Shown here: in pieces, positions 2,839-57,335 of the stretch | How the letters are laid out: the number at the start of each line of letters is the position of its first letter | Position numbering within the stretch: position 1 is the stretch's first letter | NCBI GenBank assembly: GCA_964355175.1 | Contig: CAYHBZ010000002.1 | Coordinates: 396,537-460,536 of the forward strand | DNA: 64,000 nucleotides | Origin: an uncultured Gammaproteobacteria bacterium | GTDB lineage: Bacteria > Patescibacteriota > Patescibacteriia > Magasanikbacterales > GWA2-37-8 | Reading direction: 5' to 3' | Position numbers and translations under genes: made by a program | Notes under the pieces: generated by a model | Database searches by the model: none | What the model was told of the DNA's origin: nothing | The model's input: only the letters and a program-made list of their open reading frames with translations

Positions 2839-5800
2839 ATGGCTAGAAGTAATGCGGCCAAAAACCCCGCGCTCGAAACAGCAACGCCACCAGTGGTGCT
2901 GGTGGAAGACCTAAAAGAAAAGGAAATAAAACAAAAAAAAGAAATGAAGTTGGAAAAGATTGAGAGTGTCTTTGACGCGGCGAAGGAAAGGGTGAAAGGA
3001 AAAGAAGACCACCTGGCGGCGATGCACGCGGAATTGGTAGGTTTGCTTAATCAGATCCCGGATAAGGAAAATGGGGATTTTACGGTGCGATTACATAGAT
3101 TCGCGGATAGATTTGGAACTATTAAAAACCATTTAGATAATATGGTAGCCGAAAGCCAATTGCCGGAATTGGAATCGGGTGCTTTTGCGCCAGTGGATGC
3201 GACGGAGTCGTCGCCGGTGTCAAAGAGCAATAGTCATATTTCGGAATTAAAAAATTTCAAAGATACTAGTGGTGCTATTTTAAATGGGGCTGTAAATGAA
3301 AAAATAAAAGATAAACCGATTTTTCGCGGCAGCATGGTGTTTAAAAATGGTGACCATTATGTTGGTTTCTCTATTCTCTCAGCTGACGGATCTTATAAAT
3401 TTCACGGTGAAGGTTCTCTAGAAAAGGATGGGGGTAAGATGGCGCTTGAAGGTTTTTTTCAAAATGGCAAATTAAAAAATGGCCATCTGATTGAAAAATT
3501 AGCAGATGGTAGAACAAGAGTGGTATTTGCTGAAAATGAAAAAGCTGCGCGAGTTGAAACTGGATATTTTAATAGCAACAATCAGTTGGAAGGAGTGGGA
3601 GAAATTATTGATCAAAAACACGGTGTTAAAGAGCGTGGAGATTTTGTGAACGGCGAGCTTCGTGATGGTTATGTGGTAGATCTGATAAGCGGTAAACCGT
3701 TGGAAAAATGGGAAAATGGCAAACAAGTCGAAGCGGGAGAAAATTTACCAGCCGAAATCACTAATTCGGAAAAAAGTTTTGACAGAAGACTGGCTGCCAG
3801 AGAAAAAGAAAGAGAAATCAAAGTCGAAGAAGTTTTTGAAGCAGTCTCCGGTCTAGATGGTTTGGTAAACTTTGAGGATGTTTCCAATCAGGTTTTAAAT
3901 GGGAAAATCACTCACACGCCTAAAAGCGAACATATTTTTGACGGAGAAATAAAATCCGACAGTAGAGGCTATAAATACCAAGGCCAGGCTATTTTGGAAA
4001 GTGACGGTGTTTTCAGATTCCACGGCCAAGGAAAGCGTACCGCTGAGATGGCTTATGCAGGAAAGGTAGAACAGGAAGGTGAATTTTCCTATGGAACTTT
4101 TTTGAACGGTGTAGGAATATATACTGGCCAAGATATGGGCTACGGTGCAGATAAAGTTACAGAAAAAATGGAAAATGGCAAGACTGTAGAAAGAGTATTT
4201 TATCTTGAAAAATACAAAGATAAAAAGGATGTATTATTTGCCGGTCAGATGTTTGAAAAAGAATTTTCCAAAGACAATCTATATGTCGGTGAATTCACTA
4301 TGCCTAATGGCTCCGTATATAAAGGAGAGGCCTTTAAAAATAAAAAAGGTCAATTTGAATTGGTGAGCGGAAAGTCAGAGAGAATAAAATCCGCTACAGT
4401 GATAGATAAGTTTAAAGATTTATTTAGATTTGGTAGAAATAAAAAAGAAGAATCAAAATTAGCTACAGCCGAAGTTCAATCGGAAGTTGAGGCAGAAGCA
4501 GAACAGGCTCCGGAAGTTGTGGGCGAACAAGCGTTTCTTCTCGTCACTCCTGGAGGAGAAAATTACGCACTTAAAGGTATCGCCACTGATCAATCCGACG
4601 GCAGTAGGAAATTTAATGGAGAAATAAAAAATATTGATAACGGTGGTGAAGAGACTGGCTTCCAATATTCTGGTGAAGCAATTCTTTCTAGTAACAATGA
4701 AATAACTTTTCATGGCAAAGGAAAAAAGAGTGGCGCCTTTTTTGATGAAACCGGTGAATGGAATATGGGTGAGTTGGAAAATGGTGAAATCCATTCTAAA
4801 GATGGAGAACTTTTGAAAAAATATGTAAATGGACAAGAGGTGGCCGTGACCAAACCAGCTGAGAAGTCCAAAGAAAAAAGTTGGATCGGTAAAAAGTTGG
4901 AATCAGCCAAAGAGTCTGTAGCTTCCGCGTACAATTTTGTCACTACCAAAGAAGGAGCAAGGTTATCCAACCAAGCGGCCTATAAAATTGCCACTGGTTT
5001 TGTTGGTATTAAAATTGGAACGGATATAGCTTTGGCGGCCTATGCTGGCGCTTTGAATAAAGTTGGTGAAAAGGATTGGTTTTCGGAAGCTTTTAAAAAA
5101 CGATTGAAAGAGGAAGCGGCTGTAGCCGGAGAGTATAGTGATGTCTATAAACATCTGGGTGGTAGGGAGCAGATAGCTGCTATCAAAGCTGGATTTGCCG
5201 AATTTATGTCGGCCGTAAATCCAGAAGAAAATGAGAATGTGGAATTGAATCTGGTAGACGAGAAATATTCCGCTCTCAAAGCAAAAATCGAATCCTCCAA
5301 TAGAATCAACCAAGAAGCCAAAGGAAAATTTTTGGCTAAATTGGAAGAGATAAACCAAAAATTTGATCACAGAAATGAAAAGTTGGATGAACAGGAAGTG
5401 GCGGAAGCTAGCGCTTATATGAAAGCCTATATCGTAAATGATACGGCTGCTATGCAGATTGCCAGAGATAGTATCAGTGGCGTGGCCAAAGCGGTGATGG
5501 TTGGTGCCAGTGGCGGTAGCAGTCTTCTTTTGGCAGGAGCTATCGGCAGGGTGATGGGTATGGCCACTACCAAAGTAGTGGAGCGTGCGCAAAAAAGCCG
5601 CAGATTCAATGAACAAGCGGCATTGGAAAACAAAAAGACATTTAACGCCGCCGAGGATATCAAAGCCGCTTTGCTTGAGACAATGCACGGTTTGACTTTT
5701 AGTAAATTTAACGCGGGTAAAGATGTAAAGACCGGCAAAGATCTGGACAAGAAAGCTCTCTTTGCCAATTTTGCTAAATCGTTTGGTAATGTATTGATAA

Positions 5801-7815
5801 GCGCCGGTGTGGTGCTTGGTTTGGAAGGCAAGACTATCGGCAGTGCAATAAATGAGCTTGTCCATAAAATTTCCGGAGATGGATCAAATGCGGAATTTGG
5901 TCGTCAGATGGCGCAAAATGTTTCAGCCAAGGTTGCGGAAGCTAAAGGTGTAAATCTGGGTAAAATACCAGATAATGCTCCGGTCGCTGCCGCAATTGCC
6001 GCCGCCGAAGCCAAAGCAGCTGCTGTGGCAGCGGGCACAGCTTCAGATCATGTAGCGTCCAATGGTTTGGAAAACTCCGCCGATACCGGCGCTGGTGAAA
6101 ATTCAGCTTTGGAGACTTTCTACCAAGAGCATCCAAAATTATCGAGTGATGCCAAAGCTTTTTTTGATGATCTTGTAAAACAACATACTAAATTAAACAA
6201 TCCTGATTTTCTCAAAAAACTTTGGGAAGTTTCTGGTAATTCTAAATCTTCGCTTGATATCACCGGTGCCAAAGTACAGACCGCTATTTTCACCGAGATT
6301 ATTCACAGTGAGGGCAAGGAAGCGGCCGTAGCTTATTTGAAAGATGAAACTCATTTGCACGGTTTGGCTTTGCAAAAATTAGGAAAAGATGGCGTTGAAG
6401 CTTTTGTGGAAAGATATCTCAAAGGTGATGCTGGTGTGCAAGCCAAGTTGGAAAATAAATTATATGGGGCCATGAAAGCTGATATTGATACCGATCTTAC
6501 AAACAAAGGTTTTATCCAGAGACACGGTGATGGATCGGTTCGGGATGTCGGTGCGGCTAAAGGCCGACATTTCTTTGGGGTTGGTAAAGACGGCAAGCCT
6601 GTATTAGACGATGGTAAGGTTTCTAGGTTTACCCATCACAGCCCTGAACATTCGGTGGCCGGAAGTGGTAAAACAGCTTTGGACAAAATAGTATCCGGTG
6701 AAAAGTTACCTAAAGTTGGTTTACATGAACAAAAAATTGGCATTGGTCCAAATATTCAAAAAGGAATTCCAACTGGTTGGGCCGCCGCTAGTGAAGCAGG
6801 TCCAAAAGGGCAGGCTATGGTAAATGGTTTTATGGATGAACAGGGCCATGGAAGATTTTTAATTCATTCTACTGATCCTGGATCAGAATTTGATGTGGAT
6901 AGAGACATGCGCATGGTGGATTCTAATAGCGGCAAAATTTTTGATCTCGATGGAAATCATGTCGGTTATCTAAATGCTCCGATGGCAGAGAATACTCCAA
7001 CACCAGTGTCCGCAACTCCAGGCAGAGCTAGTTGGTCTAGTGGTGGAAATGGTTCTGAAAAAGGTAACGCCACCCAAAATGTAGTCAGAGCAGAAAGATC
7101 TGTTGATCACGGCGGCGGCGGTGCTCCGAAAGAACAAGCGGTAGTAGCTCCTGCAGAACAAGAACCTGCTCCAGAAGAGAAGAAGCCAGTTCGAGAAACA
7201 AGAGCACAAGTAAAAGCTCCCGGTATTGAAGACATGCTAAAAGCCGAACAAACTCTACAAGAAGATATGAAAGTTGGTAAATCCGTGGAGGCTGAACCTG
7301 TTCCGGTGGTAAAAGAAATTACTTCATTGGAGGATGGGCGTGAGGCGATTGCGGCTTTAGAATATTTGGACGGCGAAGAAAAAACTCGTTTGAGTAATTT
7401 TAGTTACTTACTCCAATGGCAACATGATCTCTATGGTCAAAACGGTTCAACTTTGCGCAACATGCTGGAAGGACAGGATGCGTTTGGTACTCTTGGTAAA
7501 GATCAGATCAATAGTATGATGGCCGAGTTGGCTCATAATAATGAACTGGCCAGTCGAGAGTTTATGAGAGCAGTATCAGATCATCAGCCGTATGATAAAA
7601 TTATAGAAAAATTGAATGATAAGATGCCTGGTTACGCGATGTTCCATGATGAGGATAATGCCGGCTTTGTCGATAAGATTATAAAAACGGATCTTTCGCA
7701 AAATGCAGGCGAAAATAAGGCCGCTTTTAGAGATTTGGAACTGGCAAGAGTGAAAGAAATGGTGGATCAGGCCGAGGTAAACAAGCTAATGCAGGCTCGA
7801 CAGGCAAAAAGATAA
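2839..7815 (+). CDS. giant 1658-aa protein: MORN-like repeat modules, central hydrophobic/Ala-rich region, Pro/Glu-rich spacer, C-terminal helical domain
   Basis: Single uninterrupted ORF; three ~60-aa modules (F.GEIK..G..Y.G.AIL.SDG...FHG.GK) at about aa 165-215, 360-420 and 585-645. Confidence 0.8.
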   Translation: MARSNAAKNPALETATPPVVLVEDLKEKEIKQKKEMKLEKIESVFDAAKERVKGKEDHLAAMHAELVGLLNQIPDKENGDFTVRLHRFADRFGTIKNHLDNMVAESQLPELESGAFAPVDATESSPVSKSNSHISELKNFKDTSGAILNGAVNEKIKDKPIFRGSMVFKNGDHYVGFSILSADGSYKFHGEGSLEKDGGKMALEGFFQNGKLKNGHLIEKLADGRTRVVFAENEKAARVETGYFNSNNQLEGVGEIIDQKHGVKERGDFVNGELRDGYVVDLISGKPLEKWENGKQVEAGENLPAEITNSEKSFDRRLAAREKEREIKVEEVFEAVSGLDGLVNFEDVSNQVLNGKITHTPKSEHIFDGEIKSDSRGYKYQGQAILESDGVFRFHGQGKRTAEMAYAGKVEQEGEFSYGTFLNGVGIYTGQDMGYGADKVTEKMENGKTVERVFYLEKYKDKKDVLFAGQMFEKEFSKDNLYVGEFTMPNGSVYKGEAFKNKKGQFELVSGKSERIKSATVIDKFKDLFRFGRNKKEESKLATAEVQSEVEAEAEQAPEVVGEQAFLLVTPGGENYALKGIATDQSDGSRKFNGEIKNIDNGGEETGFQYSGEAILSSNNEITFHGKGKKSGAFFDETGEWNMGELENGEIHSKDGELLKKYVNGQEVAVTKPAEKSKEKSWIGKKLESAKESVASAYNFVTTKEGARLSNQAAYKIATGFVGIKIGTDIALAAYAGALNKVGEKDWFSEAFKKRLKEEAAVAGEYSDVYKHLGGREQIAAIKAGFAEFMSAVNPEENENVELNLVDEKYSALKAKIESSNRINQEAKGKFLAKLEEINQKFDHRNEKLDEQEVAEASAYMKAYIVNDTAAMQIARDSISGVAKAVMVGASGGSSLLLAGAIGRVMGMATTKVVERAQKSRRFNEQAALENKKTFNAAEDIKAALLETMHGLTFSKFNAGKDVKTGKDLDKKALFANFAKSFGNVLISAGVVLGLEGKTIGSAINELVHKISGDGSNAEFGRQMAQNVSAKVAEAKGVNLGKIPDNAPVAAAIAAAEAKAAAVAAGTASDHVASNGLENSADTGAGENSALETFYQEHPKLSSDAKAFFDDLVKQHTKLNNPDFLKKLWEVSGNSKSSLDITGAKVQTAIFTEIIHSEGKEAAVAYLKDETHLHGLALQKLGKDGVEAFVERYLKGDAGVQAKLENKLYGAMKADIDTDLTNKGFIQRHGDGSVRDVGAAKGRHFFGVGKDGKPVLDDGKVSRFTHHSPEHSVAGSGKTALDKIVSGEKLPKVGLHEQKIGIGPNIQKGIPTGWAAASEAGPKGQAMVNGFMDEQGHGRFLIHSTDPGSEFDVDRDMRMVDSNSGKIFDLDGNHVGYLNAPMAENTPTPVSATPGRASWSSGGNGSEKGNATQNVVRAERSVDHGGGGAPKEQAVVAPAEQEPAPEEKKPVRETRAQVKAPGIEDMLKAEQTLQEDMKVGKSVEAEPVPVVKEITSLEDGREAIAALEYLDGEEKTRLSNFSYLLQWQHDLYGQNGSTLRNMLEGQDAFGTLGKDQINSMMAELAHNNELASREFMRAVSDHQPYDKIIEKLNDKMPGYAMFHDEDNAGFVDKIIKTDLSQNAGENKAAFRDLELARVKEMVDQAEVNKLMQARQAKR

Positions 7816-7841
7816 AAAATCTATATTGTAGTAATCATAGT

Positions 7842-7867
7842 AAAATCCCCTAATGTAGGGGATTTTT
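7842..7867 (+). terminator. intrinsic terminator after giant gene
   Basis: AAAATCCCCTA-ATG-TAGGGGATTTTT hairpin plus T-run. Confidence 0.6.
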
Positions 7868-7925
7868 ATTATTATATATTTTTGGCTAATTTTAGCCAAA
7901 ATAATTGATTTATTGGCCATACCCC

Positions 7926-7954
7926 TTGACAAAATTCGTAGATGGTGCTATACT
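7926..7954 (+). promoter_or_regulatory. sigma70-like promoter upstream of cassette A
   Basis: TTGACA (7926-7931), 17-nt spacer, TATACT (7949-7954). Confidence 0.5.
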
Positions 7955-8072
7955 AATCAGTTAAAATCAAATTTAACACCACGAATTATTGCGCCAGGTT
8001 TTGAGAGAGGCCCTAGCAATACATATAGACAGCTAGGTTAATTCTCTCTCAAAGGAGAATTTTTTACTTGTC

Positions 8073-8084
8073 GTTCTTTACAAT
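8073..8084 (+). promoter_or_regulatory. GTTCTTTACAAT box, copy 1 (followed by long leader hairpin, about 8093-8140)
   Basis: Exact 12-mer shared with 8941-8952 and 10397-10408. Confidence 0.5.
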
Positions 8085-8245
8085 AAATAGTGCTGAGCCC
8101 ACATGAGATCAAGAATTTCTTGATTTGATGCGGGTTCAGTGCACACAGCATTGACGTCCTCCGCGATTTTGCGGATTCGTTCAGTGCTGCGTACTGCAGC
8201 CAGGTCACGCGCCCACCTCAGTGGCGTTTCGTTCAGGAGTTTCCG

Positions 8246-8779
8246 ATGACCACCGCAAAGCACCCCGATCCGAACCATCCGGACCCCGGCACCACCGAAG
8301 AGCCCGTCGTCGACAAGGCGAAGGGCGACACGGTGGTGACCACGACGACCACCACGAGCGTTTCGTCGGCCGAGCCCATCAAGGCAAAGCCGGTGGCGAC
8401 CACCGACACCACGGCTGGCAAGACGGCGACCCAAGAGCCCAAGAAGGGTGGCTGGCCGCTCGGGACCATCGCCGGAGCTGTCGTGCTCGGTCTTCTGCTC
8501 CTCGGCGGCGTCTACTGGTTCGGCAGCCACAACAGCAGCACGCCGGTCGTCCCGCCCATCGCGGTCGCCGGTTGCTGTCTTCCCCAGGCCACCGTCGCGA
8601 GCCCCTGCTGCCCGCAACCGCCGGCTCCGCCCCCGCCGCCCGCCCCCGTCGTCAAGAAGAAGACGGTCGGCGAGTGCGTCGCCCAAGCCGTCGCCGGCAT
8701 GGAGGTCGCCCATGAGGACGACCGCCTCGCCGCGATGGACGGCGCCCGCGAAGAATGCGAGGAAGAATACGGCAAGTAG
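8246..8779 (+). CDS. GC-rich cassette A: bitopic membrane protein (Thr/Pro-rich N-terminal region, one TM, Cys/Pro-rich C-terminal region), no recognised family
   Basis: AGGAG 6 nt before ATG; strong G/C at codon position 3 in this frame only; TM WPLGTIAGAVVLGLLLLGGVYWF preceded by KKGG. Confidence 0.65.
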   Translation: MTTAKHPDPNHPDPGTTEEPVVDKAKGDTVVTTTTTTSVSSAEPIKAKPVATTDTTAGKTATQEPKKGGWPLGTIAGAVVLGLLLLGGVYWFGSHNSSTPVVPPIAVAGCCLPQATVASPCCPQPPAPPPPPAPVVKKKTVGECVAQAVAGMEVAHEDDRLAAMDGAREECEEEYGK

Positions 8780-8940
8780 CCGTTCCTGTCTCGCGTCGCT
8801 ATGTCGGTTCGGCGGGCCCTCAGCAATGAGGGTCCGCCGGCCGACTGGCTCGAATAGGACCTTTGTAGATTCCACTAGGGAAACTCCAAAGGTCCCCTAG
8901 ATTACATTCTTTTGGAAACAAGAGGATGTTGATAGGAAAA

Positions 8941-8952
8941 GTTCTTTACAAT
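8941..8952 (+). promoter_or_regulatory. GTTCTTTACAAT box, copy 2 (TTGATA 12 nt upstream)
   Basis: Exact 12-mer; about 35 nt upstream also similar to the copy 3 region. Confidence 0.5.
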
Positions 8953-9196
8953 TAAAACCAACAAAATTTTTTCCCACCTAAAAAGAATTATTATTTATAG
9001 TAATTCACTCTCGGTGGGAAAAAGTGTGGCGGAAATTCCGTTGCATAGCCTCCGACAGAGTCCCAATTGGGGCAAGTGCCCCGCGTGCGGGCTACTCTGT
9101 TACAGCGACCATTTCTGGGAAGCTGACCGAACGGCCCGCACGGCCGGTGTTCCAGTGTCTTGGTTTCGTGGGGTGAAAGTCCCCTGGAGTACAGCG

Positions 9197-10192
9197 ATGA
9201 ACAAGAATTCGAAGTTCCACAACCTCAGCATCTTGCTGACCCTGGCCATGGGGATCATGGTCGCTTCCAATTCCTACGCCGACGTGGCCACGGCTCGCGC
9301 TCGTGCCGAAGCCGCTCGTAGCCAGGCCAATCGGGCTGAGGTGAAAGCGGTCGACGCACAGACTGCGGCCAACGCGGCCAAGACCGGCGCCACCAACGCC
9401 CAGACCGCGGCCGATCAGGCCAAGGTCGAAGCGACCGCGGTGGGCACCAAGGCGGCCACTGACCTCGCTACGGCGATCCGCGCCCTCAACGGTGCGGTCG
9501 GCGGTGCGCGTGCGGCAGCGGTCAACGGTGATCGTCAGCTCGAGCGCAAGTTCAAGGCGGAGGCCGAGCGCCTTCAGACCGAGATCGAAGCGCTCAAGAA
9601 GCGGGCGCAGCACGAGTGTGCGGCGTTCGATGACAAGGGCAGCCAGGCGGCCTGTCTGACCATGCTCGAGAAGATCAACGCCAAGAACGGCGAAGTCACC
9701 ATGCACGGGCAAGACAAGGACACGGAGGTCCAGATCGCCAAGGTGGGACAGCAGTCCAAGGTGGTCCAGGAGATCTTCGACAACGCAAACCAAAACATGG
9801 ACGCCATCAAGGCGATCCAAATGGGTTGCGTCAACCAGGCCTTCGTCGACAAGGACGGCGTCAGCAAGAGCAAGTGGGAATGCCCCAAGGACATGAAGCG
9901 CGGCCCGCAGTTGCGCTACGAGCTCACGAACGTCTCGAAGTACGGCGACCACAGCGTCGTCATCGAGCCGGCCGAGAGCGGTGGCAATTCCAAGTGGGGC
10001 AAAGTGCTCGGCTTCGGCGCCATCGGTGGTGCTGCTGGCGGTGCTCTTGGCTGGGCCTTCTTCCCGAACCATGAAACCATGGAAGATGGCAGCGTCATGC
10101 ACCGGAATTACACCGGTCTCGTCGCTGGCACGGCCATCGGTTTCGTGGTCACGGCGGTGGCCACCCTGGTCATCGAAGAACTGACCGAATAG
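9197..10192 (+). CDS. GC-rich cassette B: secreted Ala-rich coiled-coil protein with C-terminal Gly-rich hydrophobic anchors, no recognised family
   Basis: GGAG 7 nt before ATG 9197; signal-peptide-like MNKNSKFHNLSILLTLAMGIMVASNSYA; GC3-biased frame; 9014-9196 treated as 5' leader. Confidence 0.65.
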   Translation: MNKNSKFHNLSILLTLAMGIMVASNSYADVATARARAEAARSQANRAEVKAVDAQTAANAAKTGATNAQTAADQAKVEATAVGTKAATDLATAIRALNGAVGGARAAAVNGDRQLERKFKAEAERLQTEIEALKKRAQHECAAFDDKGSQAACLTMLEKINAKNGEVTMHGQDKDTEVQIAKVGQQSKVVQEIFDNANQNMDAIKAIQMGCVNQAFVDKDGVSKSKWECPKDMKRGPQLRYELTNVSKYGDHSVVIEPAESGGNSKWGKVLGFGAIGGAAGGALGWAFFPNHETMEDGSVMHRNYTGLVAGTAIGFVVTAVATLVIEELTE

Positions 10193-10396
10193 GTCAACGG
10201 GTGAGGAGATCACCCCAAAGGATTGCAAGTGTGTTGGTTCACTTGCGCCAAATCTCGGTGTAGCTTATCTTGTCCCGCATTCGCGGTACGAGAGAAAGTT
10301 CACTAAACCGGTGGCGTGAACGATGGCTCAAATAGAGCTGTCGGTCACGCCCCAACAACTATCTTCTGTTTTTCAAACAGGGGATTGAGTTGGTAA

Positions 10397-10408
10397 GTTC
10401 TTTACAAT
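10397..10408 (+). promoter_or_regulatory. GTTCTTTACAAT box, copy 3 (TTGAGT 12 nt upstream; followed by hairpin, about 10426-10476)
   Basis: Exact 12-mer. Confidence 0.5.
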
Positions 10409-10641
10409 TTATTTCGTTAGATTTTCTCATACAGGACATAGGATATTTTTTGTATCTTGTGTCCTGTGTGAGAAGCCCCCAGTGGGGGTTGCCTGGGTGA
10501 AAACCCGACTAGGTCGGGGCGTTCGCTCCGGCAATTCCTCACTAGGGTGGTAAAAACGCCATCCGGACGGGTCAACTTCGACCTTTTCGGTAAAGTAGCA
10601 GTGTCTTTCTTTGTCCGCCCTTTAGTGGGCCGGAGGTTCTG

Positions 10642-12063
10642 ATGCGTAACCGGTTTCAATTGGTCGCGACTCTCGCGATGGCGGCTGCAGCCTGTGCAGC
10701 GTGTGGTGTCATCGAACATCCGGCCGATGCGGTCGTGATCGTGGTCGAAAAAGACGCCAGCAGCCAGGATGTCCAGCAGGACAACGGTCCGGCGCAGCAG
10801 CCCGAGATCGCGCAGACGGCCGACATCGCGCAGGACAACGGTCCGGCGACGAAGCCTGAGTGCGCGGTCGACAGCGACTGCGACGACAAGAACCCCTGCA
10901 CGACGGACGTCTGCGGCAGCAACGCCTGCGTCCACGTGGCCAACTCGGTCTCGTGCGACGACGGCAACGCCTGCACCAGCAACGACAAGTGCGGCTCCGA
11001 GAAGTGCTCGGGTGACCAGAAGGTCTGCGACGACAACAACCCCTGCACCGACGACGGCTGCGTCAGCGACGGCACCTGCCTGCACGGCGTCAACATCGTC
11101 AACTGCGACGACAGCGACGCCTGCACGGAAAAGGACCAGTGCGCCAACGGTAAGTGCGTCGGCCAGGTGAAGTCGTGCGACGACAAGGACAACTGCACGA
11201 CGGAATCGTGTGACAAGCTCAACGGGTGCTCGTCCACTCCGGTCGTCTGCCAGGACGCCGGGGATCCGTGCACGACGGAATCGTGCGACAAGGCAACGGG
11301 CAAGTGCTCGTCCACCACCGACTGCGACGACAAGGACGTCACCACGTTGGATGCCTGTGAACCGCTGCTCGAGACCGTGGGAATGGAGAAATGCCTCCAC
11401 ATCAAGATGCAGACCAAGTGCACCAAGAATGCGGATTGCGACGAGGACGGCGATCCGTGTTCGTTCGAGTTCTGTTCCCAGATCGGCTACTGCGCCAGCA
11501 AGTGGAAGTTGTGCGATGACGGAGACTACTGCACCCAGGACGAATGCGTCCCTCAGGCCGACTACGCCTGGTGCAAGAGCACTCAATACTCATGCGACGA
11601 CTACAACGCCTGCACGCTGGACTCCTGCACCAACGGCTACTGCCAACACAAGGGCAACGCCGCCATGTGCGACGACAAGGACTCCACCACCGCCGACTCG
11701 TGCAACCCTTCCCAGGGCTGCGTCAACACGCCGATTCCTCAACCCGGCGTGCCGAGCTCGACTCCTCCCTCGAATCCCTCGACCTGTGCGGCCTGGGGAG
11801 CGTGGATTTACTTGCCCACGGGCAACTGGCGCGGCGGCTATGACCTGACCGGTTCGTCTTCGCAAGAAACGGACCTGACAATCAGCGTCGACCAGTGGTA
11901 CGGCTTCAGCAACGCTCATTCTGTGTGGGCGTGGCTCAAGCCGTGGGGCAGTGCGGTACCGGCAAGCGTCAAGTGCACTGATCGGTGTGGTGTGGTCTTC
12001 CCCGCGAAGATCAGTGCCATGGCGGGTGGCTTCATCGCCATCTGCAGCACCGACCAGAAGTAG
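10642..12063 (+). CDS. GC-rich cassette C: Cys-rich repeat lipoprotein/secreted protein (tandem C-D-D-x-N-x-C-T-x-D-x-C units, Dicty_CTDC-like)
   Basis: GGAGG 5 nt before ATG; N-terminus MRNRFQLVATLAMAAAACAAC (signal/lipobox-like); 12 or more repeats of ~24 aa with spaced Cys; unrelated ~120-aa Trp-rich C-terminal domain. Confidence 0.75.
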   Translation: MRNRFQLVATLAMAAAACAACGVIEHPADAVVIVVEKDASSQDVQQDNGPAQQPEIAQTADIAQDNGPATKPECAVDSDCDDKNPCTTDVCGSNACVHVANSVSCDDGNACTSNDKCGSEKCSGDQKVCDDNNPCTDDGCVSDGTCLHGVNIVNCDDSDACTEKDQCANGKCVGQVKSCDDKDNCTTESCDKLNGCSSTPVVCQDAGDPCTTESCDKATGKCSSTTDCDDKDVTTLDACEPLLETVGMEKCLHIKMQTKCTKNADCDEDGDPCSFEFCSQIGYCASKWKLCDDGDYCTQDECVPQADYAWCKSTQYSCDDYNACTLDSCTNGYCQHKGNAAMCDDKDSTTADSCNPSQGCVNTPIPQPGVPSSTPPSNPSTCAAWGAWIYLPTGNWRGGYDLTGSSSQETDLTISVDQWYGFSNAHSVWAWLKPWGSAVPASVKCTDRCGVVFPAKISAMAGGFIAICSTDQK

Positions 12064-12330
12064 GCGGGGCTCAGGGGGTCTAACGGAAAAAGTTTTTGCT
12101 CTTTGGTAAAAGCAAACGGAAGGAGGTGTTCCTTTCGATAGGCCATTTCGGCCACCCATGCCAGAGGCGAGCGATCGCTAAAGGCTGGTCAACTAGGGGT
12201 GGTGTTGCTTCACCGCACACCACCCCGACCATCTCTAGCTCACAATATCTGTTGTGATCTGAAGATGGAAATAGCAATATGTCCATGACAAAAATACCAC
12301 CCTTCTCTCGGGCGGTTTTTTGTTTTTTAA

Positions 12331-12356
12331 GATTCCTCGCTACGCTCGGAATGACA
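12331..12356. repeat. REP-like element, half site (GATTCCTCGCTACGCTCGGAATGACA)
   Basis: Reverse-complement orientation of the GTCATTCCGAG...GAGGAATC family seen five more times. Confidence 0.6.
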
Positions 12357-12358
12357 AC

Positions 12359-13741
12359 TTAGACCTTGGCACTCCAATAACCCCATACTGCCCACCACCA
12401 CCAGATCACCGGGGTGTGGTGAAGCATGTTATCAGAAGCACTCAAAGTGAGATAAACAAAGATGCTAGTGATGAATACAAAATTTGTCCAAGCATTTTTT
12501 TTGCCCCATTTTATTTCTCGATAAAGTAAACTGATAAAAATTCCAATATACAGAGCTAGGCCTATAAGTCCGGATTCAAACCCAATTTTGAGATAATCAT
12601 TATGGGCCTCGGAAGTGGAGTCCCAGATGTTTTCCACCCCTTTATTATCATCCCAAACTTTGGCAAAGCTACCATAGCCGTAGCCAGTGAGAGGGTGTTT
12701 GCTCCAAAGTGGAATTACTTTATTAAAAAGATCCGCGCGCCAAGAGATAGAGTCGGCTTCCATGTTGCGGCTGGTCATACGGGCCACGAGCGGGCTTTGC
12801 TGTAGGTTTACATTTAGGGTAGTTTTGAGCCAATAATTTATTGGGAAGAATAGTCCATACAATATTAAAATTCCGGCGGTAAAAATAATGGTTTTTTCGC
12901 GAGCATATTTGAGGCCAATAGCCAATAAAAATATGGCCAAACCAATCCAGGCAATGCGGGTATAGGTAAGAGCGATAGCTACGGCCAAGAATACCATGGT
13001 CAAAACATATAGTTCACCTTTGGATTCTTTAAATAAATTTGGTTTAAATTTGAGCAGTTTGCTGGCGTGCTCTAGGTAATTATGATATTTATGAAACAAA
13101 AATATAAATAAAATTAGGGAAAAAGTGGCTAGGATATTGGGGTGGGCGAAAGTGCCATAGATGCGATTGGGGGTGCCGTCGATATCCATGCCGGTTTTGG
13201 TAATAAACTGGTAAATAGCCAGTAAGAATGTGGCAATGCCGGAAGAAATAAACAACCAAAAGAAAATTTTATCAAAAAATTCACCGTGTTTGCGGCGTAA
13301 AATATAGCTCATTCCAAACAGGGCAAATAGGTTGGCGCCTTTGAGAGTTTCGGTGATAGTGGCCATTGTATCAAAGCTCCAGAAAAAAGTGGCGCCACTC
13401 CAGACTATAAAAGCTATCCATATTCCGGTCAAAGGAACATTTTTAAATTCGCTAAAATGTTTGTAAAAAAATATTACGGACCAGGCTAATAGTAACAATG
13501 ATACGGCCGCGTTGAGATTGAGGTGAATGGCGTTGTAGGAAAAAATGACATAGTCGCGCCAGTAGTCCATGGTCGGGCGGGCTAGCAATAGGGTGAGTAG
13601 GGCATAGTCGCCAAAGAACTTGTAGAGTACGATGACCACGATGGCCAAGAGGGCTAGGATATCGCCGCCGGTGGTGGGATTGAAAATGGTAAAAATTAGT
13701 AGTCCGCCGATGAGCCACTGGGTAAGGGAGAGCTTGTTCAT
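12359..13741 (-). CDS. O-antigen ligase/Wzy-like polytopic membrane protein
   Basis: 460 aa, 10 or more TM helices with a large loop in the C-terminal half, typical of the Wzy_C/O-antigen ligase family. Confidence 0.6.
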   Translation of the reverse strand: MNKLSLTQWLIGGLLIFTIFNPTTGGDILALLAIVVIVLYKFFGDYALLTLLLARPTMDYWRDYVIFSYNAIHLNLNAAVSLLLLAWSVIFFYKHFSEFKNVPLTGIWIAFIVWSGATFFWSFDTMATITETLKGANLFALFGMSYILRRKHGEFFDKIFFWLFISSGIATFLLAIYQFITKTGMDIDGTPNRIYGTFAHPNILATFSLILFIFLFHKYHNYLEHASKLLKFKPNLFKESKGELYVLTMVFLAVAIALTYTRIAWIGLAIFLLAIGLKYAREKTIIFTAGILILYGLFFPINYWLKTTLNVNLQQSPLVARMTSRNMEADSISWRADLFNKVIPLWSKHPLTGYGYGSFAKVWDDNKGVENIWDSTSEAHNDYLKIGFESGLIGLALYIGIFISLLYREIKWGKKNAWTNFVFITSIFVYLTLSASDNMLHHTPVIWWWWAVWGYWSAKV

Positions 13742-18154: not shown

Positions 18155-18306
18155 AATAAGTCGTTTGTTCTTTATTTGGCAGGATAATTTTGGATTAAAA
18201 TTTTTAATTCAGAGTTATCGTGCCAACTTTCTCAATGCGTGTCGGCGAAATGCGTCGATATGTAAAGAGAGGTGCGAGAGCCTACATGGTAGGCAGGAGA
18301 GCAGGA

Positions 18307-19122
18307 ATGGCAGACAGCAGCCACAACGTTACTCAGGTCGGCATCACCGTCGGGCCGCCCAACGCCGATCTCGGCAGTGTGGTGGTTCGTCAGGAGGCGG
18401 CCAGGGCGGATCTCAATGAGCGGCGTACGCATCTCAGCTTGGTTGTCAAGCCCTCGGTCGATGATCTGGTCGCGCGGCTGAATGTCGAGCGGCAGGAAGT
18501 CGACCGCATCGGCGCGCTGGTCGATGCGGTAGAGCGCGAACAGGCGAAGAGCGTCAAGCACTTCGAATCGACGCTCGGCGGGCAGGCGCGGCTCTGGAAG
18601 AAGGGTTTCGACGCCCATGAGCGCTCGATCTTCTGGGTCAAGCTCCTCGGCGTCGTCGGCCTGGTCCTGGTCGGTATCGTCCTGGTCCTGAACCTGTCGT
18701 CCTCCTCGGACATCTCCACGGCCAAGTCGGAAGCCATCTCGGCCAAGACCACCGTGGCGGAGTTCAAGAAGGCCACCCAAGGCGAGGTCGTCAAGATCAA
18801 GAAGAGGCTCGATGCCAACAAGCTCGACATGGATCAGCTCAAGGATCAGATCAAGGTCGTCGGGCTCAAGGCTGACAAGAGCGTCGTCACTCGCATGGGC
18901 GAAGAGCTCAAAGAAGCCAACATCGAGCAGGACGGTCGGATCCAGGACATCGCCACCGCGATCATGGGCAAGGCCGACATAGCCGATCTCAAGAGCGTGA
19001 GGAGCGCAGTCGCGCAGGTTCGCCGGGCCAACGGCAAGGTGAACACGAAGATGACCAGGCTCGAAGCTCAGGTCCTGGAGCTCAAGGCCCAACTCCAGGC
19101 CCAACAGCCCAAGACCATGTAG
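18307..19122 (+). CDS. GC-rich cassette D: bitopic membrane protein with extracytoplasmic coiled coil, no recognised family
   Basis: AGGAGA 6 nt before ATG 18307; TM WVKLLGVVGLVLVGIVLVLNL; heptad-like K/D/L-rich C-terminal half; GC3-biased frame. Confidence 0.65.
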   Translation: MADSSHNVTQVGITVGPPNADLGSVVVRQEAARADLNERRTHLSLVVKPSVDDLVARLNVERQEVDRIGALVDAVEREQAKSVKHFESTLGGQARLWKKGFDAHERSIFWVKLLGVVGLVLVGIVLVLNLSSSSDISTAKSEAISAKTTVAEFKKATQGEVVKIKKRLDANKLDMDQLKDQIKVVGLKADKSVVTRMGEELKEANIEQDGRIQDIATAIMGKADIADLKSVRSAVAQVRRANGKVNTKMTRLEAQVLELKAQLQAQQPKTM

Positions 19123-19185
19123 TCCGTTCCCGATCTGTTCGGGCACTTGTAGTTTAGCCTTGATTTCTGAAGGCAAAAGCTCGGT

Positions 19186-19300
19186 GAGGACGCAAAATCC
19201 CCCCAAGGGTGTGTCGTTTACTCGACACTACCTGCTTAGTTCGCAAAAAATTGTTTGCTGAGCAGAATAAAAAATCCGCTATTATGGTGGATTTTTTAAT
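19186..19300 (+). repeat. 3' repeat R1, copy 1 (three hairpins, the last a terminator)
   Basis: About 80% identical to 20118-20238; bulged hairpin GGTGTGTCG-TTTACT-CGACACTACC; ends AAAAAATCCGC...GGTGGATTTTTT. Confidence 0.6.
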
Positions 19301-19330
19301 CTAAAATATGCTGTTTTTAGGTCAGTAGTA

Positions 19331-19359
19331 TTGACAAAGTAGGATTTTTATGTTTTAAT
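19331..19359 (+). promoter_or_regulatory. sigma70-like promoter of cassette E
   Basis: TTGACA, 17-nt spacer, TTTAAT. Confidence 0.55.
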
Positions 19360-19504
19360 AGTTCATTAGATTGTTCTTTTTAATCAATTCGCGCGACAAT
19401 TATAAATTAAAATTTTTCAATTTATAATCGTCGTGCGAATTTCAGTTTATCAATGACGGCCAGTCGGAGGTTCCGATTGGTTCAGCTCTTTCTGCGAGGT
19501 GAGC

Positions 19505-20074
19505 ATGGTTGATTTCAATCCCCCGGATCCAGTGGATCCAGAGAAGAAAAAGAAGCCTTCGTCGGCTGTGGAGACAGACCACAATTGGGAAGCCTGGGCC
19601 AACGATAATTCGGTCGATGACGGCAGTCATCCTCTGCCTGGTGAAGCCGAATACGTCGGACGGTCCGACCTTCCCATGACACGGGCACAGAAAGAGCGCA
19701 TCGCCGCGATCGTAGTCGGTACGGCCTTCCTGGTGTTGGTTTTCTTTGTCATCAATTTCGCTATCGGCAACAAGCTCAAGCATTCTGAAGCGGCCTCGTC
19801 CAACGAGGCTGGCAAGCAGAGCGCTCAGGCAAGTGCCGAAGTAGAATTGAAGGCAGAAGAAGCCGCCTCAGAGCAGGATCATACGGTCTCGCTGCCGGAT
19901 CACGCTTCGCAGGAAGATGATCTGGACGATGCTCGCGCGACCATCAAGGTCGTCGGTTTGGAGAAACGGCGCGTTCGAGATCCAGAGATGGAGCGGATCG
20001 CCGCAACCATCAAGATCGTGCCACTGCGTGTCAGTCCTGTCGCGGTACCGCTTCCAGCGGCCGCTACTCAGTAG
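19505..20074 (+). CDS. GC-rich cassette E: bitopic membrane protein with acidic C-terminal region, no recognised family
   Basis: GAGGTG just before ATG 19505; TM IAAIVVGTAFLVLVFFVINFAIG preceded by RAQKER; GC3-biased frame. Confidence 0.6.
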   Translation: MVDFNPPDPVDPEKKKKPSSAVETDHNWEAWANDNSVDDGSHPLPGEAEYVGRSDLPMTRAQKERIAAIVVGTAFLVLVFFVINFAIGNKLKHSEAASSNEAGKQSAQASAEVELKAEEAASEQDHTVSLPDHASQEDDLDDARATIKVVGLEKRRVRDPEMERIAATIKIVPLRVSPVAVPLPAAATQ

Positions 20075-20117
20075 TAGTCAAACATACTTTGAACCTAAAA
20101 GTGTGTGAGACTCCTGA

Positions 20118-34000: not shown

Positions 34001-34354
34001 CTACCAGGCGCCCATGGGCTGAGACGTAGGCTTGGCGACTTCCAGTTCCTGGGCCGTGGCCAGACGCGCTCCGGCACAGGTGCCCAGCACCCACTGGATC
34101 ACGAGCAGGTCACCGACCTTGGTCTCCTTGGGGACGAACAACGGGAAGCCGCTGCGGTCCTCGTCGGCTCCGCGCTTGTGTTCGTTCTCTGCGAAGTAGC
34201 GATGGCCGCTCTTGTCGCTACGTCCGAGCACGTAGAAGATCGGAGTCTCCGGATGCTGGTCGGCGTTGTTGCTGTCGCGACGGATGAGTTTGCCTTGGGG
34301 TACAAAGATACCGACACCGGTTTCGAGCCGGAAGACACCGTGAAAGATAAGCAT
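34001..34354 (-). CDS. GC-rich cassette F: 117-aa soluble protein, no recognised family
   Basis: AAGGA 6 nt before ATG; GC3-biased frame on minus strand; own promoter and leader hairpin. Confidence 0.6.
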   Translation of the reverse strand: MLIFHGVFRLETGVGIFVPQGKLIRRDSNNADQHPETPIFYVLGRSDKSGHRYFAENEHKRGADEDRSGFPLFVPKETKVGDLLVIQWVLGTCAGARLATAQELEVAKPTSQPMGAW

Positions 34355-43541: not shown

Positions 43542-43616
43542 GGCCCGTTCGTCTATCGGCTAGGACATGGCCTTCTCAAGGCTAGAAGAGGGGTTCGACT
43601 CCCCTACGGGCTACCA
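43542..43616 (+). tRNA. tRNA-Glu (anticodon CUC), CCA encoded
   Basis: Hand-folded cloverleaf: acceptor GGCCCGT/ACGGGCT, anticodon loop TTCTCAA, T-arm AGGGG-TTCGACT-CCCCT, 3' ACCA. Confidence 0.85.
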
Positions 43617-56121: not shown

Positions 56122-56206
56122 GGAGAGGTCGCATAGTGGCCGAGTGCGCCGCCTTGGAAAGGCGGTATACCGCAAGGTATCGAGGGTTCAAATCCCTCTC
56201 TCTCCG
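56122..56206 (+). tRNA. tRNA-Ser (anticodon GGA), long variable arm, CCA not encoded
   Basis: Hand-folded: acceptor GGAGAGG/TCTCTCC, anticodon stem CCGCC/GGCGG with loop TTGGAAA, 16-nt variable arm, T-arm GAGGG-TTCAAAT-CCCTC. Confidence 0.85.
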
Positions 56207-56244
56207 CTGGGTCACGCTTATATGAGCAAAGGGTTCATATTCCA

Positions 56245-56276: not shown

Positions 56277-56405
56277 ACCAGATAAAAAAATAATTCTTCA
56301 TAAAAACACACCGTCGGGTGTGTTTTTATATTGACAAAAATGTATTTTTAGTATAGGCTCTAGCCTGATCGTTCTCGCGGATTTCTCGCGCTACAGGAGG
56401 ACATC

Positions 56406-56774
56406 ATGGCAGATTCTCTGCCGTTCCAAGAAGATCTGCGTAAGCCATTCCACATCTCAGTCTGCGACCGGATCGCTCTCTGCCTCACGGCAATGAGCAT
56501 CTCCGGTGGAAGGGAGATCCCGCTCGGCATCCAGGAGGTGACCAGAGACCTGGATCTCTTGGACAAGACCAAGGTCCCGGCCAAGGAACTGCCCAGTGTG
56601 ACAAAGGCCCTCTACGGCCTGCGGGTGATGTACGGCCCTCTCATGCCGACGGTTTCTCAGCGCCTGACCCAATCGATCGACCTCTTGGTCGTGTATCAAG
56701 AGGAGCTGGCCGAGGATGGCAAGCTGGATCGCGACCTCGTGTGGTTGCCGCCTGTCGTCGACCCGGTAGCCTAG
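56406..56774 (+). CDS. GC-rich cassette G: 122-aa soluble protein, no recognised family
   Basis: AGGAGG 5 nt before ATG; GC3-biased frame; TTGACA at 56331. Confidence 0.6.
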   Translation: MADSLPFQEDLRKPFHISVCDRIALCLTAMSISGGREIPLGIQEVTRDLDLLDKTKVPAKELPSVTKALYGLRVMYGPLMPTVSQRLTQSIDLLVVYQEELAEDGKLDRDLVWLPPVVDPVA

Positions 56775-57327: not shown

Positions 57328-57335
57328 GAGGACTC

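What the first reader, a model, noticed from the sequence alone, without database searches (positions are those of the whole stretch)
10642..12063. Cys-rich tandem-repeat lipoprotein (C-D-D-x-N-x-C-T-x-D-x-C units) in a CPR-like genome
About 300 residues consist of a dozen or more ~24-aa units. Examples are CDDKNPCTTDVCGSNACVHVANSVS, CDDGNACTSNDKCGSEKCSGDQKV, CDDNNPCTDDGCVSDGTCLHGVNIVN and CDDSDACTEKDQCANGKCVGQVKS. They match the Dictyostelium CTDC-type repeat pattern, which is also seen in high-GC predatory or social bacteria. A Pro-rich linker and a Trp-rich ~120-aa domain of unknown type follow. Such disulfide-rich adhesin-like repeats fit with the gene having been acquired from a high-GC donor.
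Basis: partly seen in the sequence, partly recalled or inferred. Interest (0 to 1): 0.5.

Follow-up and report, generated by a model that had tools for sequence, protein, structure and literature searches.

The report
Cysteine-rich stalk lipoprotein, oddly GC-rich
This gene in a tiny symbiotic-type (CPR) bacterium encodes a membrane-anchored surface protein with a rigid cysteine-rich stalk and a previously undescribed head domain; related bacteria keep it and two neighbouring genes in a 'foreign-looking' GC-rich codon dialect for far longer than a simple import should last.

Summary
ORF 10642-12063 (+) encodes a 473-aa protein with 11 Dicty_CTDC units (Pfam PF00526, E 5e-25). It also has a lipoprotein-type signal, a Pro-rich hinge and a 92-aa Trp-rich C-terminal domain. 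The genome is a Candidatus Magasanikbacteria (CPR) contig, about 41-43% GC.

The C-terminal domain defines a small undescribed family. It models as a beta-sandwich with no clear structural relative. It always sits at the C-terminus of repeat-stalk lipoproteins.

The 'acquired from a high-GC donor' reading is only partly supported. Gene GC3 is 0.84, against 0.34-0.49 in the flanks. Its codon usage resembles that of Myxococcota CTDC genes, where the family is hugely expanded at native GC.

The gene is not a recent island:
- Its true orthologs are in CPR genomes, at the same position beside a Wzy_C/glycosyltransferase cluster.
- They are GC3 0.77-0.91 in every lineage, although flanking genes are saturated at synonymous sites.
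- Two neighbouring secreted or membrane protein genes share the anomaly. One of them has no homolog outside these CPR contigs.
- All three genes carry the same promoter-like box, GTTCTTTACAAT (3 exact copies; 0.01 expected).

Most likely this is a co-regulated surface 'stalk-and-head' binding module. Why it stays GC-rich is unexplained.

The parts
8073..8084 (+). Promoter-like box GTTCTTTACAAT, copy 1, 162 nt before ATG 8246
   Evidence: This is one of 3 exact matches in the window, against 0.01 expected and 0 of 100 shuffles reaching 3. It is also part of direct-repeat family D7.
8246..8779 (+). Gene 1 of the module: a 177-aa single-pass membrane protein with Thr- and Pro-rich stretches. GC is 0.695 and GC3 is 0.865.
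   Evidence: ORF and composition. It has no Pfam hit. A gene of similar size and composition (217 aa, GC3 0.77) sits at the same position in L003, but BLAST finds no similarity between them.
8941..8952 (+). Promoter-like box GTTCTTTACAAT, copy 2, 245 nt before ATG 9197
   Evidence: The same box precedes the gene-2 homolog in L102.
9197..10192 (+). Gene 2 of the module: a 331-aa protein with a signal peptide, an Ala-rich coiled coil and a C-terminal Gly/Ala-rich membrane segment. GC3 is 0.82.
   Evidence: The start was taken from the 331-aa gene call on L001. Only two homologs exist among 5.8 billion proteins (P0172 49%, P0173 42% identity), plus the 286-aa gene of L096. All are GC3 0.83-0.87.
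10397..10408 (+). Promoter-like box GTTCTTTACAAT, copy 3, 234 nt before ATG 10642
   Evidence: The same box lies upstream of the CTDC orthologs in L003, L009, L096, L101 and L177.
10412..10641 (+). Long, moderately GC-rich (about 0.54) structured 5' leader, with a CAGTGTCT motif at 10599 and GGAGG before the ATG
   Evidence: The RNA fold is -88.6 kcal/mol, z = -4.5 against shuffles. CAGTGTCT occurs only at 9153 and 10599 in the window. Only one small hairpin is conserved across orthologs.
10642..10704 (+). Signal peptide with lipobox (aa 1-21; Cys21 is the probable lipidated residue)
   Evidence: C21 is an invariant column aligned with the lipobox Cys of the orthologs. L101 has FVAC|G at the same place. 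The AF2 model has a helix at aa 4-19.
10705..10860 (+). Acidic, Gln/Ala/Pro-rich low-complexity tether (aa 22-73) containing an 18-nt repeat
   Evidence: pLDDT is below 50 for aa 20-68. The tandem repeat is at 10792-10833, with direct repeat D5.
10861..11736 (+). CTDC rod: a cap Cys plus 11 Dicty_CTDC units (aa 74-365, 44 Cys). Units 1-4 form a 150-nt super-repeat.
   Evidence: Pfam PF00526 and the unit list. TRF finds period 150, 1.9 copies, 76% matches. In the AF2 model every unit is a beta-hairpin, with pLDDT 88-96 for aa 80-200 and 58-87 beyond.
11737..11784 (+). Pro/Ser/Thr-rich hinge (aa 366-381)
   Evidence: Read from the sequence. It is aligned with the Pro-rich hinges of the orthologs.
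11785..12060 (+). C-terminal Trp-rich head domain (aa 382-473, 4 Cys), a member of an undescribed family
12359..13741 (-). Conserved low-GC neighbour: Wzy_C (O-antigen ligase-like) gene, the first gene of an envelope-polysaccharide cluster. It is context, not part of the high-GC module.
   Evidence: Pfam PF04932, E 1e-21. A Wzy_C gene lies next to the CTDC gene in L003, L005, L006, L094, L095 and L096.

Best explanation
The gene encodes a cell-surface 'stalk-and-head' lipoprotein of a Candidatus Magasanikbacteria (CPR) cell.

Architecture (shown):
- A lipobox Cys anchors it in the membrane.
- A roughly 50-aa disordered acidic tether follows.
- Then comes a rod of 11 disulfide-stapled CTDC beta-hairpin units, a Pro-rich hinge and a 92-aa disulfide-bonded beta-sandwich head that belongs to a small undescribed family.

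Genomic setting (shown):
- It is the third gene of a conserved, separately promoted three-gene module.
- The module is a single-pass membrane protein, a secreted coiled-coil protein with a C-terminal membrane segment, and the CTDC lipoprotein.
- The module sits beside the Wzz/Wzy_C/glycosyltransferase/GHL15 envelope-polysaccharide cluster.
- Each gene carries the same box GTTCTTTACAAT and a long leader.

Function (inferred): the rod is a variable-length spacer (1 to 11 units in relatives) that projects the head beyond the envelope. There the head binds a ligand, most plausibly a glycan or surface component of a partner cell or of the cell's own envelope.

Origin (inferred): the CTDC array probably entered the CPR lineage long ago from a Myxococcota-like high-GC donor. 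Since then the module has been inherited vertically and given native promoters. Its GC-rich codon usage is being actively kept rather than being a fresh scar of transfer.
For: Architecture:
- Searches support the domain layout.
- The rod models with pLDDT 88-96.
- Its closest solved folds are the Cys-rich region of the Entamoeba Gal/GalNAc adhesin lectin heavy chain (Foldseek E 4e-5 to 9e-4).

Head domain:
- Relatives carry the head family at the C-terminus, mostly on lipoproteins with other stalk repeats: CTDC, CxxC-type and TSP3-like.

Variable stalk and swapped heads:
- L096 has the same head on a single CTDC unit (192 aa). It is in the same gene order, coiled-coil gene, lipoprotein, then Wzy_C on the minus strand, and its Wzy_C is 66% identical to the window's.
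- P0108, P0106, P0026 and P0014 have orthologous rods but a different head.

Synteny with the envelope cluster.

Shared box:
- 3 exact copies in the window, 0.01 expected.
- All three lie upstream of the module genes.
- The box is conserved in L003, L009, L096, L101, L102 and L177.

Old and vertical inheritance:
- Flanking orthologs between the window and L003 are 47-75% identical in protein.
- They are random at 4-fold sites: 0.29-0.37 identical against 0.25-0.27 expected.
- The module stays at GC3 0.77-0.91 in at least 8 independent assemblies.

Donor-like codon usage. In Myxococcota the gene has native composition.
Against: - No experiment or expression data exist for this protein or its family.
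- The lipobox of the query itself is atypical (AAAC/CAAC), and no signal-peptide predictor was run.
- Repeat sequences give no reliable phylogeny, so the direction and date of any transfer are not shown.
- Gene 2 has no homolog outside these CPR contigs, and no relative of gene 1 was found at the syntenic position in L003. An import from Myxococcota therefore cannot explain the GC-richness of the whole module.
- The force that keeps GC3 high is unknown.
- The box may be an operator rather than a promoter.
Confidence: 0.6

Rival explanations
1. This is the first reader's reading: the gene lies in a recently acquired genomic island from a high-GC (Myxococcota-like) donor, and its composition simply has not had time to ameliorate.
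For: GC3 is 0.84 against 0.34-0.49 in the flanks, and codon preferences are inverted (AAG 93% against 14%; GAC 86% against 22%). Codon usage is close to that of Myxococcota CTDC genes. The family is massively expanded in Myxococcota.
Against: Orthologs at the same locus in at least 5 diverged CPR lineages all keep the anomaly. Four-fold sites are near saturation among these orthologs and saturated in the flanks. The best non-CPR matches are only 34-43% identical over the repeats, and none shares the architecture. There is no integrase, tRNA or flanking direct repeat at this islet. The promoter regions are AT-rich and conserved within CPR. Neighbouring gene 2 is CPR-restricted.
Confidence: 0.08
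2. No transfer is needed. The module is an endogenous CPR gene set whose GC-rich synonymous codons are maintained by selection. One possibility is translational gating of a surface-protein regulon written in codons that are rare in this genome. Another is selection for mRNA structure or stability. A third is GC-biased gene conversion at a recombination hot spot for variable surface genes.
For: GC rises in steps: promoter 0.26-0.39, leader 0.51-0.56, CDS 0.60-0.69, GC3 0.77-0.91. The bias is therefore strongest at codon third positions rather than regional. It persists past synonymous saturation. It is shared by CPR-only genes and by other islets in the window that encode membrane proteins. A dedicated conserved box points to a regulon. 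CTDC repeats can be encoded AT-rich elsewhere, with GC3 0.20 in viral contigs, so the protein sequence does not force the bias.
Against: No precedent was found in the literature searches. The resemblance to donor codon usage and the rarity of CTDC proteins in CPR compared with Myxococcota are more simply explained by an import. The tRNA set and expression data were not available. Known bacterial gene-conversion effects on GC3 are far smaller (my own knowledge).
Confidence: 0.25
3. The protein is not a binder. It could be a structural or redox/metal-handling envelope component, for example a spacer that sets envelope or S-layer distance, or a Cys-rich metal sink.
For: The protein is 10.6% Cys. 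It lies next to envelope-polysaccharide genes. The head has no specific lectin relative.
Against: The Cys count in the rod is even (44) and the Cys lie in the conserved CTDC register, each unit modelling as a beta-hairpin at high confidence. That fits disulfides rather than free thiols. Heads are swapped between orthologous rods and rod length varies from 1 to 11 units. This pattern is typical of variable surface-recognition proteins rather than fixed structural spacers (inference).
Confidence: 0.15
4. The islet is an assembly chimera or contamination: a high-GC fragment wrongly joined into a CPR contig.
For: The composition jumps abruptly. Many module genes are found on short contigs.
Against: The same high-GC gene joined to low-GC CPR flanks is seen in independent assemblies from NCBI, JGI, ENA and Logan. 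Two other runs give DNA identical to the window across 8925-12330 and 10641-12075.
Confidence: 0.01

Closest known systems
Pfam PF00526 Dicty_CTDC repeat proteins of Dictyostelium (extracellular Cys-rich 24-aa repeat proteins)
   Same: The roughly 24-aa unit has the same four-Cys register (C-D-D-x-N-x-C-T-x-D-x-C...), and the match is well above Pfam's gathering score. The family has no solved structure: it is listed among repeat families without a known structure in PMC8078820, and there is no PDB sequence hit.
   Different: This is a bacterial lipoprotein, not a eukaryotic secreted matrix protein. The array is short (11 units) and ends in a distinct head domain. The role of the Dictyostelium proteins in the extracellular matrix is stated from my own knowledge and was not tested here.
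CTDC-repeat lipoproteins of Myxococcota MAGs ('cysteine-rich repeat protein')
   Same: They have the same repeat type, an N-terminal lipoprotein-like signal and a modular C-terminal domain. Their codon usage is similar to that of the CPR copies.
   Different: The Myxococcota proteins are longer (600-830 aa) and occur as many paralogs per genome. They are often fused to enzymes or known domains (FGE-sulfatase PF03781, amidase PF01510, LTD PF00932, cupredoxin PF00127). Their genes have the GC content of their genome. None has the irregular unit 7, the 11-unit layout or the Trp-rich head of the window protein.
Orthologous CPR lipoproteins P0108 (Candidatus Magasanikbacteria, GCA_041666745.1), P0106, P0026 and P0014
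   Same: The rods are orthologous unit by unit, including the irregular unit 7. They share the lipobox, the acidic tether, the Pro hinge and the genomic position beside Wzy_C. They show the same GC3 excess and carry the same upstream box.
   Different: They are only 36-41% identical. They carry a different C-terminal head (about 115 aa, ending in GCP) that aligns poorly with the window's head.
Cys-rich region of the Entamoeba histolytica Gal/GalNAc lectin heavy chain (PDB 9gjc, 9gjb and related entries)
   Same: These are the best solved-structure matches to the rod model (Foldseek E 4e-5 to 9e-4, probability 0.82-0.98). Both are extended disulfide-rich stalks of surface proteins.
   Different: TM-scores are low (about 0.1) and identity is 15-18%. 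There is no sequence-level relationship. This is a resemblance of fold class only, not homology.

Membership tests
Pfam PF00526 Dicty_CTDC repeat | Match to the family HMM above the curated gathering score | tested here: met
   87.3 bits against a cut-off of 27, E 5.4e-25, 8 stretches.
Pfam PF00526 Dicty_CTDC repeat | Tandem units of about 24 aa with a conserved four-Cys register | tested here: met
   There are 11 units, ten of 23-27 aa and one of 38 aa, with 44 Cys in aa 74-365. The strict motif occurs 7 times against 0.0035 in shuffles. The Cys columns are invariant across 40 homologs.
Pfam PF00526 Dicty_CTDC repeat | Disulfide-bonded extracellular fold | not testable with these tools
   The AF2 model gives one beta-hairpin per unit at pLDDT up to 96. 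Disulfide bonds and location were not measured.
Bacterial lipoprotein (signal peptidase II substrate) | Basic n-region, hydrophobic h-region, then a lipobox [LVI][ASTVI][GAS]C | tested here: inconclusive
   The query has MRNR + FQLVATLAMAAAA + C18-A-A-C21, an atypical lipobox. The orthologs have canonical VSGC, ISGC and VAC|G aligned with C21. No SignalP or LipoP tool was available.
Recently acquired genomic island | Atypical base composition and codon usage | tested here: met
   GC is 0.60-0.70 and GC3 is 0.82-0.87, against about 0.42 and 0.34-0.49 in the flanks.
Recently acquired genomic island | Patchy presence among relatives, or absence from the syntenic site in related genomes | tested here: not met
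   The gene is present at the same site beside Wzy_C in L003, L005, L009, L095 and L096.
Recently acquired genomic island | Mobility signatures: integrase or transposase, tRNA target, flanking direct repeats | tested here: not met
   There is no tRNA near 8-12 kb. No flanking direct repeats were found; the only repeats are the promoter box and the coding repeats. The three genes have no PHROG or Pfam mobility hits.
Recently acquired genomic island | A close homolog in a candidate donor lineage | tested here: not met
   The best non-CPR matches are 34-43% identical over the repeats only. Gene 2 has no non-CPR homolog.
NCBIfam Cys-rich repeat families (for example the Myxococcus cysteine-rich repeat) | Match to an NCBIfam model | tested here: not met
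   No NCBIfam family matches at E <= 0.01.
Carbohydrate-binding module (for the C-terminal head) | Significant structural or sequence match to a CBM family | tested here: inconclusive

The most novel reading that the evidence does not exclude
Magasanikbacteria-type CPR genomes (about 41-46% GC) carry a conserved regulon of secreted and membrane surface-protein genes. It is marked by a dedicated box (GTTCTTTACAAT) and long leaders. Its synonymous sites are held at GC3 0.8-0.9 over evolutionary times that saturate neutral sites. On this reading, gene-specific selection or a biased process maintains a second 'codon dialect' inside a tiny genome. One possible purpose is translational gating of host-interaction proteins. 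The CTDC lipoprotein with its swappable head and variable-length stalk would be the recognition component.
Probability: 0.3. Interest if true: 0.75.

Novelty: new variant of a known kind. Interest (0 to 1): 0.55.

Why it matters
CPR/Patescibacteria are thought to live attached to other cells, yet their attachment molecules are almost unknown. A conserved, separately regulated surface module gives a concrete candidate for partner or envelope recognition that can be expressed and tested. It has a rigid disulfide stalk of variable length and exchangeable head domains.

Separately, the locus challenges the routine rule that atypical GC means recent horizontal transfer. Here the atypical composition sits at one syntenic site across lineages whose neutral sites are saturated, and it also covers a gene with no homolog outside CPR. 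If this holds genome-wide, it would be a clear case of a long-maintained second codon usage in a streamlined genome. That bears on HGT detection, binning of metagenomes (these genes often end up on short orphan contigs) and translational regulation.

Tried and rejected
- The word-index protein search with the head domain alone found nothing, not even the query itself. The exhaustive phmmer search was needed.
- The AF2 full-length model left the head unmodelled, with pLDDT below 40. A separate 7-sequence alignment fixed this.
- The PDB sequence search gave no hit.
- NCBIfam, PADLOC and PHROGs gave nothing for the CTDC protein. Gene 2's weak 'tail fiber' PHROG hits (E 1e-6 at best) lie in its Ala-rich coiled coil, and I take them as compositional.
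- A phage origin is unlikely. Only 4 viral contigs encode CTDC relatives, at 31-34% identity. Three of them are AT-rich and the fourth has about 48% GC; in all four the gene matches its flanks.
- Rfam found nothing credible in 7800-12400. The only E < 0.01 hit is an animal microRNA family below its threshold.
- A consensus structure for the leader across orthologs gave only one 6-bp hairpin with a single compensatory pair, so I make no riboswitch claim.
- The metagenome scan for the 16-nt box returned mostly chance hits in AT-rich contigs. Three are followed by high-GC DNA in a low-GC context (L177, L106, L193), and only L177 has a clear downstream CTDC lipoprotein gene.
- I did not attempt a phylogeny of the repeat region, because repeats align promiscuously: long Myxococcota proteins outscore the true orthologs.
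- Literature searches found no description of CTDC proteins in CPR or of persistent high-GC gene sets in CPR.
Full report
**1. What is there**

ORF 10642-12063 (+) is real and encodes 473 aa. A GGAGG ribosome-binding site lies 6 nt upstream of the ATG. Pfam assigns the protein to PF00526 Dicty_CTDC with E 5.4e-25, 87.3 bits against a cut-off of 27.

Reading the sequence gives this layout:
- A basic and hydrophobic signal ending in C18-A-A-C21.
- An acidic low-complexity tether, aa 22-73.
- A cap Cys plus 11 CTDC units, aa 74-365. The units start at 80, 105, 129, 155, 179, 203, 228, 266, 291, 318 and 343. Unit 7 is irregular at 38 aa.
- A Pro/Ser/Thr hinge, aa 366-381.
- A 92-aa domain with 7 Trp and 4 Cys, aa 382-473.

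A strict unit motif occurs 7 times, against 0.0035 in shuffles. At the DNA level, units 1-4 are a 150-nt super-repeat with 76% matches.

**2. Whose genome**

Ten window proteins were looked up by exact sequence. Nine are in the collection, and eight of them, including all the housekeeping proteins tested, are recorded on a 953,736-bp contig. Transketolase-like, SufB and TIGR00730-family proteins cluster at 90% identity or more with proteins named Candidatus Magasanikbacteria. The window averages 43% GC. The 'CPR-like' label is confirmed.

**3. Structure**

With a 40-sequence alignment, AlphaFold2 models each CTDC unit as a beta-hairpin. pLDDT is 88-96 for aa 80-200 and 58-87 up to aa 365. The tether and the head are unmodelled.

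The nearest solved folds to this model are the Cys-rich region of the Entamoeba Gal/GalNAc adhesin lectin heavy chain (Foldseek E 4e-5 to 9e-4). TM-scores are low, as expected for a flexible rod. No PDB chain matches by sequence. PF00526 is listed among repeat families without a known structure in PMC8078820.

**4. The head domain**

An exhaustive phmmer search of 1.84 billion representatives found 10 proteins at E <= 0.001, one of which is the query itself. The convincing relatives are P0155, P0156, P0157, P0159, P0160 and P0162. All carry the domain at the very C-terminus of predicted lipoproteins whose middle parts are different stalk repeats: CTDC, CxxC-type or TSP3-like.

**5. Orthologs and synteny**

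Among 1090 homologs, long Myxococcota proteins score best because they have more repeats. Only P0108, P0106, P0026 and P0014 share the whole layout with the window protein. That layout includes the lipobox, the tether, the same unit order with the irregular unit 7, and the hinge. P0056, a shorter near-identical variant of P0014 that lacks the irregular unit, belongs with them.

P0108 lies in a Magasanikbacteria MAG (GCA_041666745.1) in the same gene order as the window. That order is a 353/355-aa gene, a Wzz-like gene, a giant 1658/1669-aa gene, two small genes, the CTDC gene, then Wzy_C, glycosyltransferases, radical SAM and GHL15. P0026 is directly followed by a Wzy_C gene. The cut gene after P0106 begins with the same N-terminal sequence as that Wzy_C gene.

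These rods end in a different head (about 115 aa, ending in GCP). Conversely, L096 has the window's head on a single CTDC unit (192 aa). L096 comes from a closer relative, with Wzy_C 66% identical, and has the identical local order. L095 has four high-GC secreted protein genes, three of them with CTDC-type repeats, next to Wzy_C. Stalk length and head type therefore vary on a conserved scaffold and locus.

**6. Composition**

The three + strand genes at 8246-8779, 9197-10192 and 10642-12063 have GC 0.63-0.70 and GC3 0.82-0.87. Flanking genes have GC3 0.34-0.49. Codon preferences are inverted: AAG 93% against 14%, GAC 86% against 22%, ATC 85% against 24% and GTC 71% against 13%.

The same excess is seen in other assemblies:
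- CTDC orthologs in L003, L005, L009 and L010: GC3 0.77-0.90, beside low-GC neighbours.
- L095 and L096.
- L101 and L102.
- L177.

Of the 80 GTDB loci with CTDC genes, 76 have enough flanking DNA to compare. In 73 of them the gene matches its flanks within -0.056 to +0.039 GC. Only the Magasanikbacteria locus (+0.165), an 'Azambacteria' locus (+0.139) and one mislabelled low-GC MAG (+0.109) deviate.

CTDC repeats are not intrinsically GC-rich. Three viral contigs encode them at GC3 0.20 and a Chitinophagales MAG at GC3 0.415.

**7. Is it a recent import?**

No, for five reasons:
- Window and L003 flanking orthologs are 47-75% identical in protein and essentially random at 4-fold sites: 0.29-0.37 identical against 0.25-0.27 expected.
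- The five CTDC orthologs are near saturation too: 0.39-0.59 against 0.34-0.41. Every lineage still keeps GC3 at 0.77 or above.
- Gene 2 has only two homologs among 5.8 billion proteins. Both sit on short contigs with the same box and GC3 0.83-0.87. No high-GC donor is known for it.
- There is no tRNA, integrase or flanking direct repeat at this islet.
- GC rises stepwise: promoter 0.26-0.39, leader 0.51-0.56, CDS 0.60-0.69, GC3 0.77-0.91. The bias is therefore strongest at codon third positions and is not a regional mutational effect.

In favour of an old import of the CTDC array: the family is enormously expanded in Myxococcota, and the CPR copies use nearly the same codons as the Myxococcota copies, except for more GAA and GGT. 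I conclude that an ancient import of the CTDC gene is plausible but unproven, and that it cannot by itself explain the persistent, module-wide composition.

**8. A shared cis element**

GTTCTTTACAAT occurs exactly three times in the window, at 8073, 8941 and 10397. Each copy is on the + strand, 162-245 nt upstream of one of the three module genes. The chance expectation is 0.01, and 0 of 100 shuffles reached 3. The repeat finder recovered the same three sites independently (family D7).

The box is conserved upstream of the orthologous genes in L003 (twice), L009, L096, L101 and L102. A metagenome scan for the 16-nt form gave mostly chance hits, but it also found L177, where the box precedes a CTDC lipoprotein gene with GC3 0.91.

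The leader of the CTDC gene folds stably, with z = -4.5. It shares CAGTGTCT with the gene-2 leader. Cross-species covariation is minimal. The three genes therefore look like separately transcribed, co-regulated units with native AT-rich control regions.

**9. Mechanism proposed**

Shown: the domain architecture, the conservation, the synteny, the shared box and the composition.

Inferred: the protein is lipid-anchored on the outer face of the membrane. The disulfide-stapled CTDC rod acts as a rigid spacer whose length is tuned by unit number. The head binds a ligand, plausibly a glycan given the neighbourhood (Wzz, Wzy_C, glycosyltransferases, GHL15) and the fold class.

In an episymbiotic CPR cell this could serve attachment to a partner or organisation of its own envelope. 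Swapped heads and variable stalks fit a recognition function under diversifying pressure.

**10. Known relatives and novelty**

The protein is a member of PF00526. It is related to, but architecturally distinct from, the Myxococcota CTDC lipoproteins. Its head belongs to an undescribed family. I found no paper describing CTDC proteins in CPR or persistent high-GC gene sets in CPR.

I rate the protein as a new variant of a known kind. The long-maintained GC-rich 'dialect' of a box-marked surface module is the surprising part, and it remains unexplained.

Noticed in passing
window 18200-20100 (ORFs 18220-19122 and 19499-20074), 34001-34354 (-), 56400-58750: There are further high-GC islets (GC 0.55-0.69; GC3 up to 0.81) in the 41-43% GC window. 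They encode small proteins without Pfam hits, several with a membrane segment or coiled coil. The islet after GHL15 has a positional counterpart in L003 (179 aa, GC3 0.73) with no detectable sequence similarity. About 9 kb of the 64 kb is in such islets.
   Followed up: partly
window 56122-56207 and 56400-58750: tRNA-Ser(GGA) lies immediately upstream of one high-GC islet. Two ORFs there (57085-57327 and 57512-57925) both end in a W-x-C...C...N...C-x2-C-G-A-x-R-P motif that looks like a zinc ribbon. This could be a remnant of an integrated element, unlike the 8-12 kb islet.
   Followed up: no
window 2839-7815 (+) and L003 2321-7330: A giant 1658-aa protein with no Pfam or NCBIfam hit sits just upstream of the module. 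The syntenic 1669-aa protein of the other Magasanikbacteria genome shows no BLAST similarity to it beyond 23 residues. This means either extreme divergence or replacement at a fixed position.
   Followed up: partly
window 10412-10641; also 9153 and 10599: The roughly 230-nt leader of the CTDC gene is predicted to fold much better than shuffles (z = -4.5). CAGTGTCT occurs only twice in the window, both times 35-45 nt before the start codons of module genes 2 and 3. The orthologous leaders share it together with a GCGGG-AAAA-CCCGC hairpin.
   Followed up: partly
L001, L002, L005-L012, L096, L101, L102 (short contigs): Module genes are very often found on short contigs of 1.4-6 kb that end in or near the module. 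Assemblies seem to break there, and such high-GC fragments would be easy to mis-bin away from their low-GC CPR genome.
   Followed up: no
L094 (Candidatus Azambacteria MAG JACRAK010000032.1) and L093 (Candidatus Uhrbacteria JAPLZK010000003.1): Other CPR lineages carry tandem CTDC genes. The Azambacteria MAG has four next to the same Wzy_C-GT-GT-GHL15 cluster, with GC3 0.70-0.85 against 0.46-0.53 in the flanks. The Uhrbacteria MAG has two between the Cu-oxidase_4 and murB genes, in a neighbourhood that also holds a Mur ligase gene, with only a mild excess (GC3 0.51-0.55).
   Followed up: partly
window 43542-43616: A tRNA-Glu with anticodon CUC, which reads GAG only, is present in a genome where 81% of Glu codons in ordinary genes are GAA. 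This may be relevant to decoding the GC-rich gene set.
   Followed up: no
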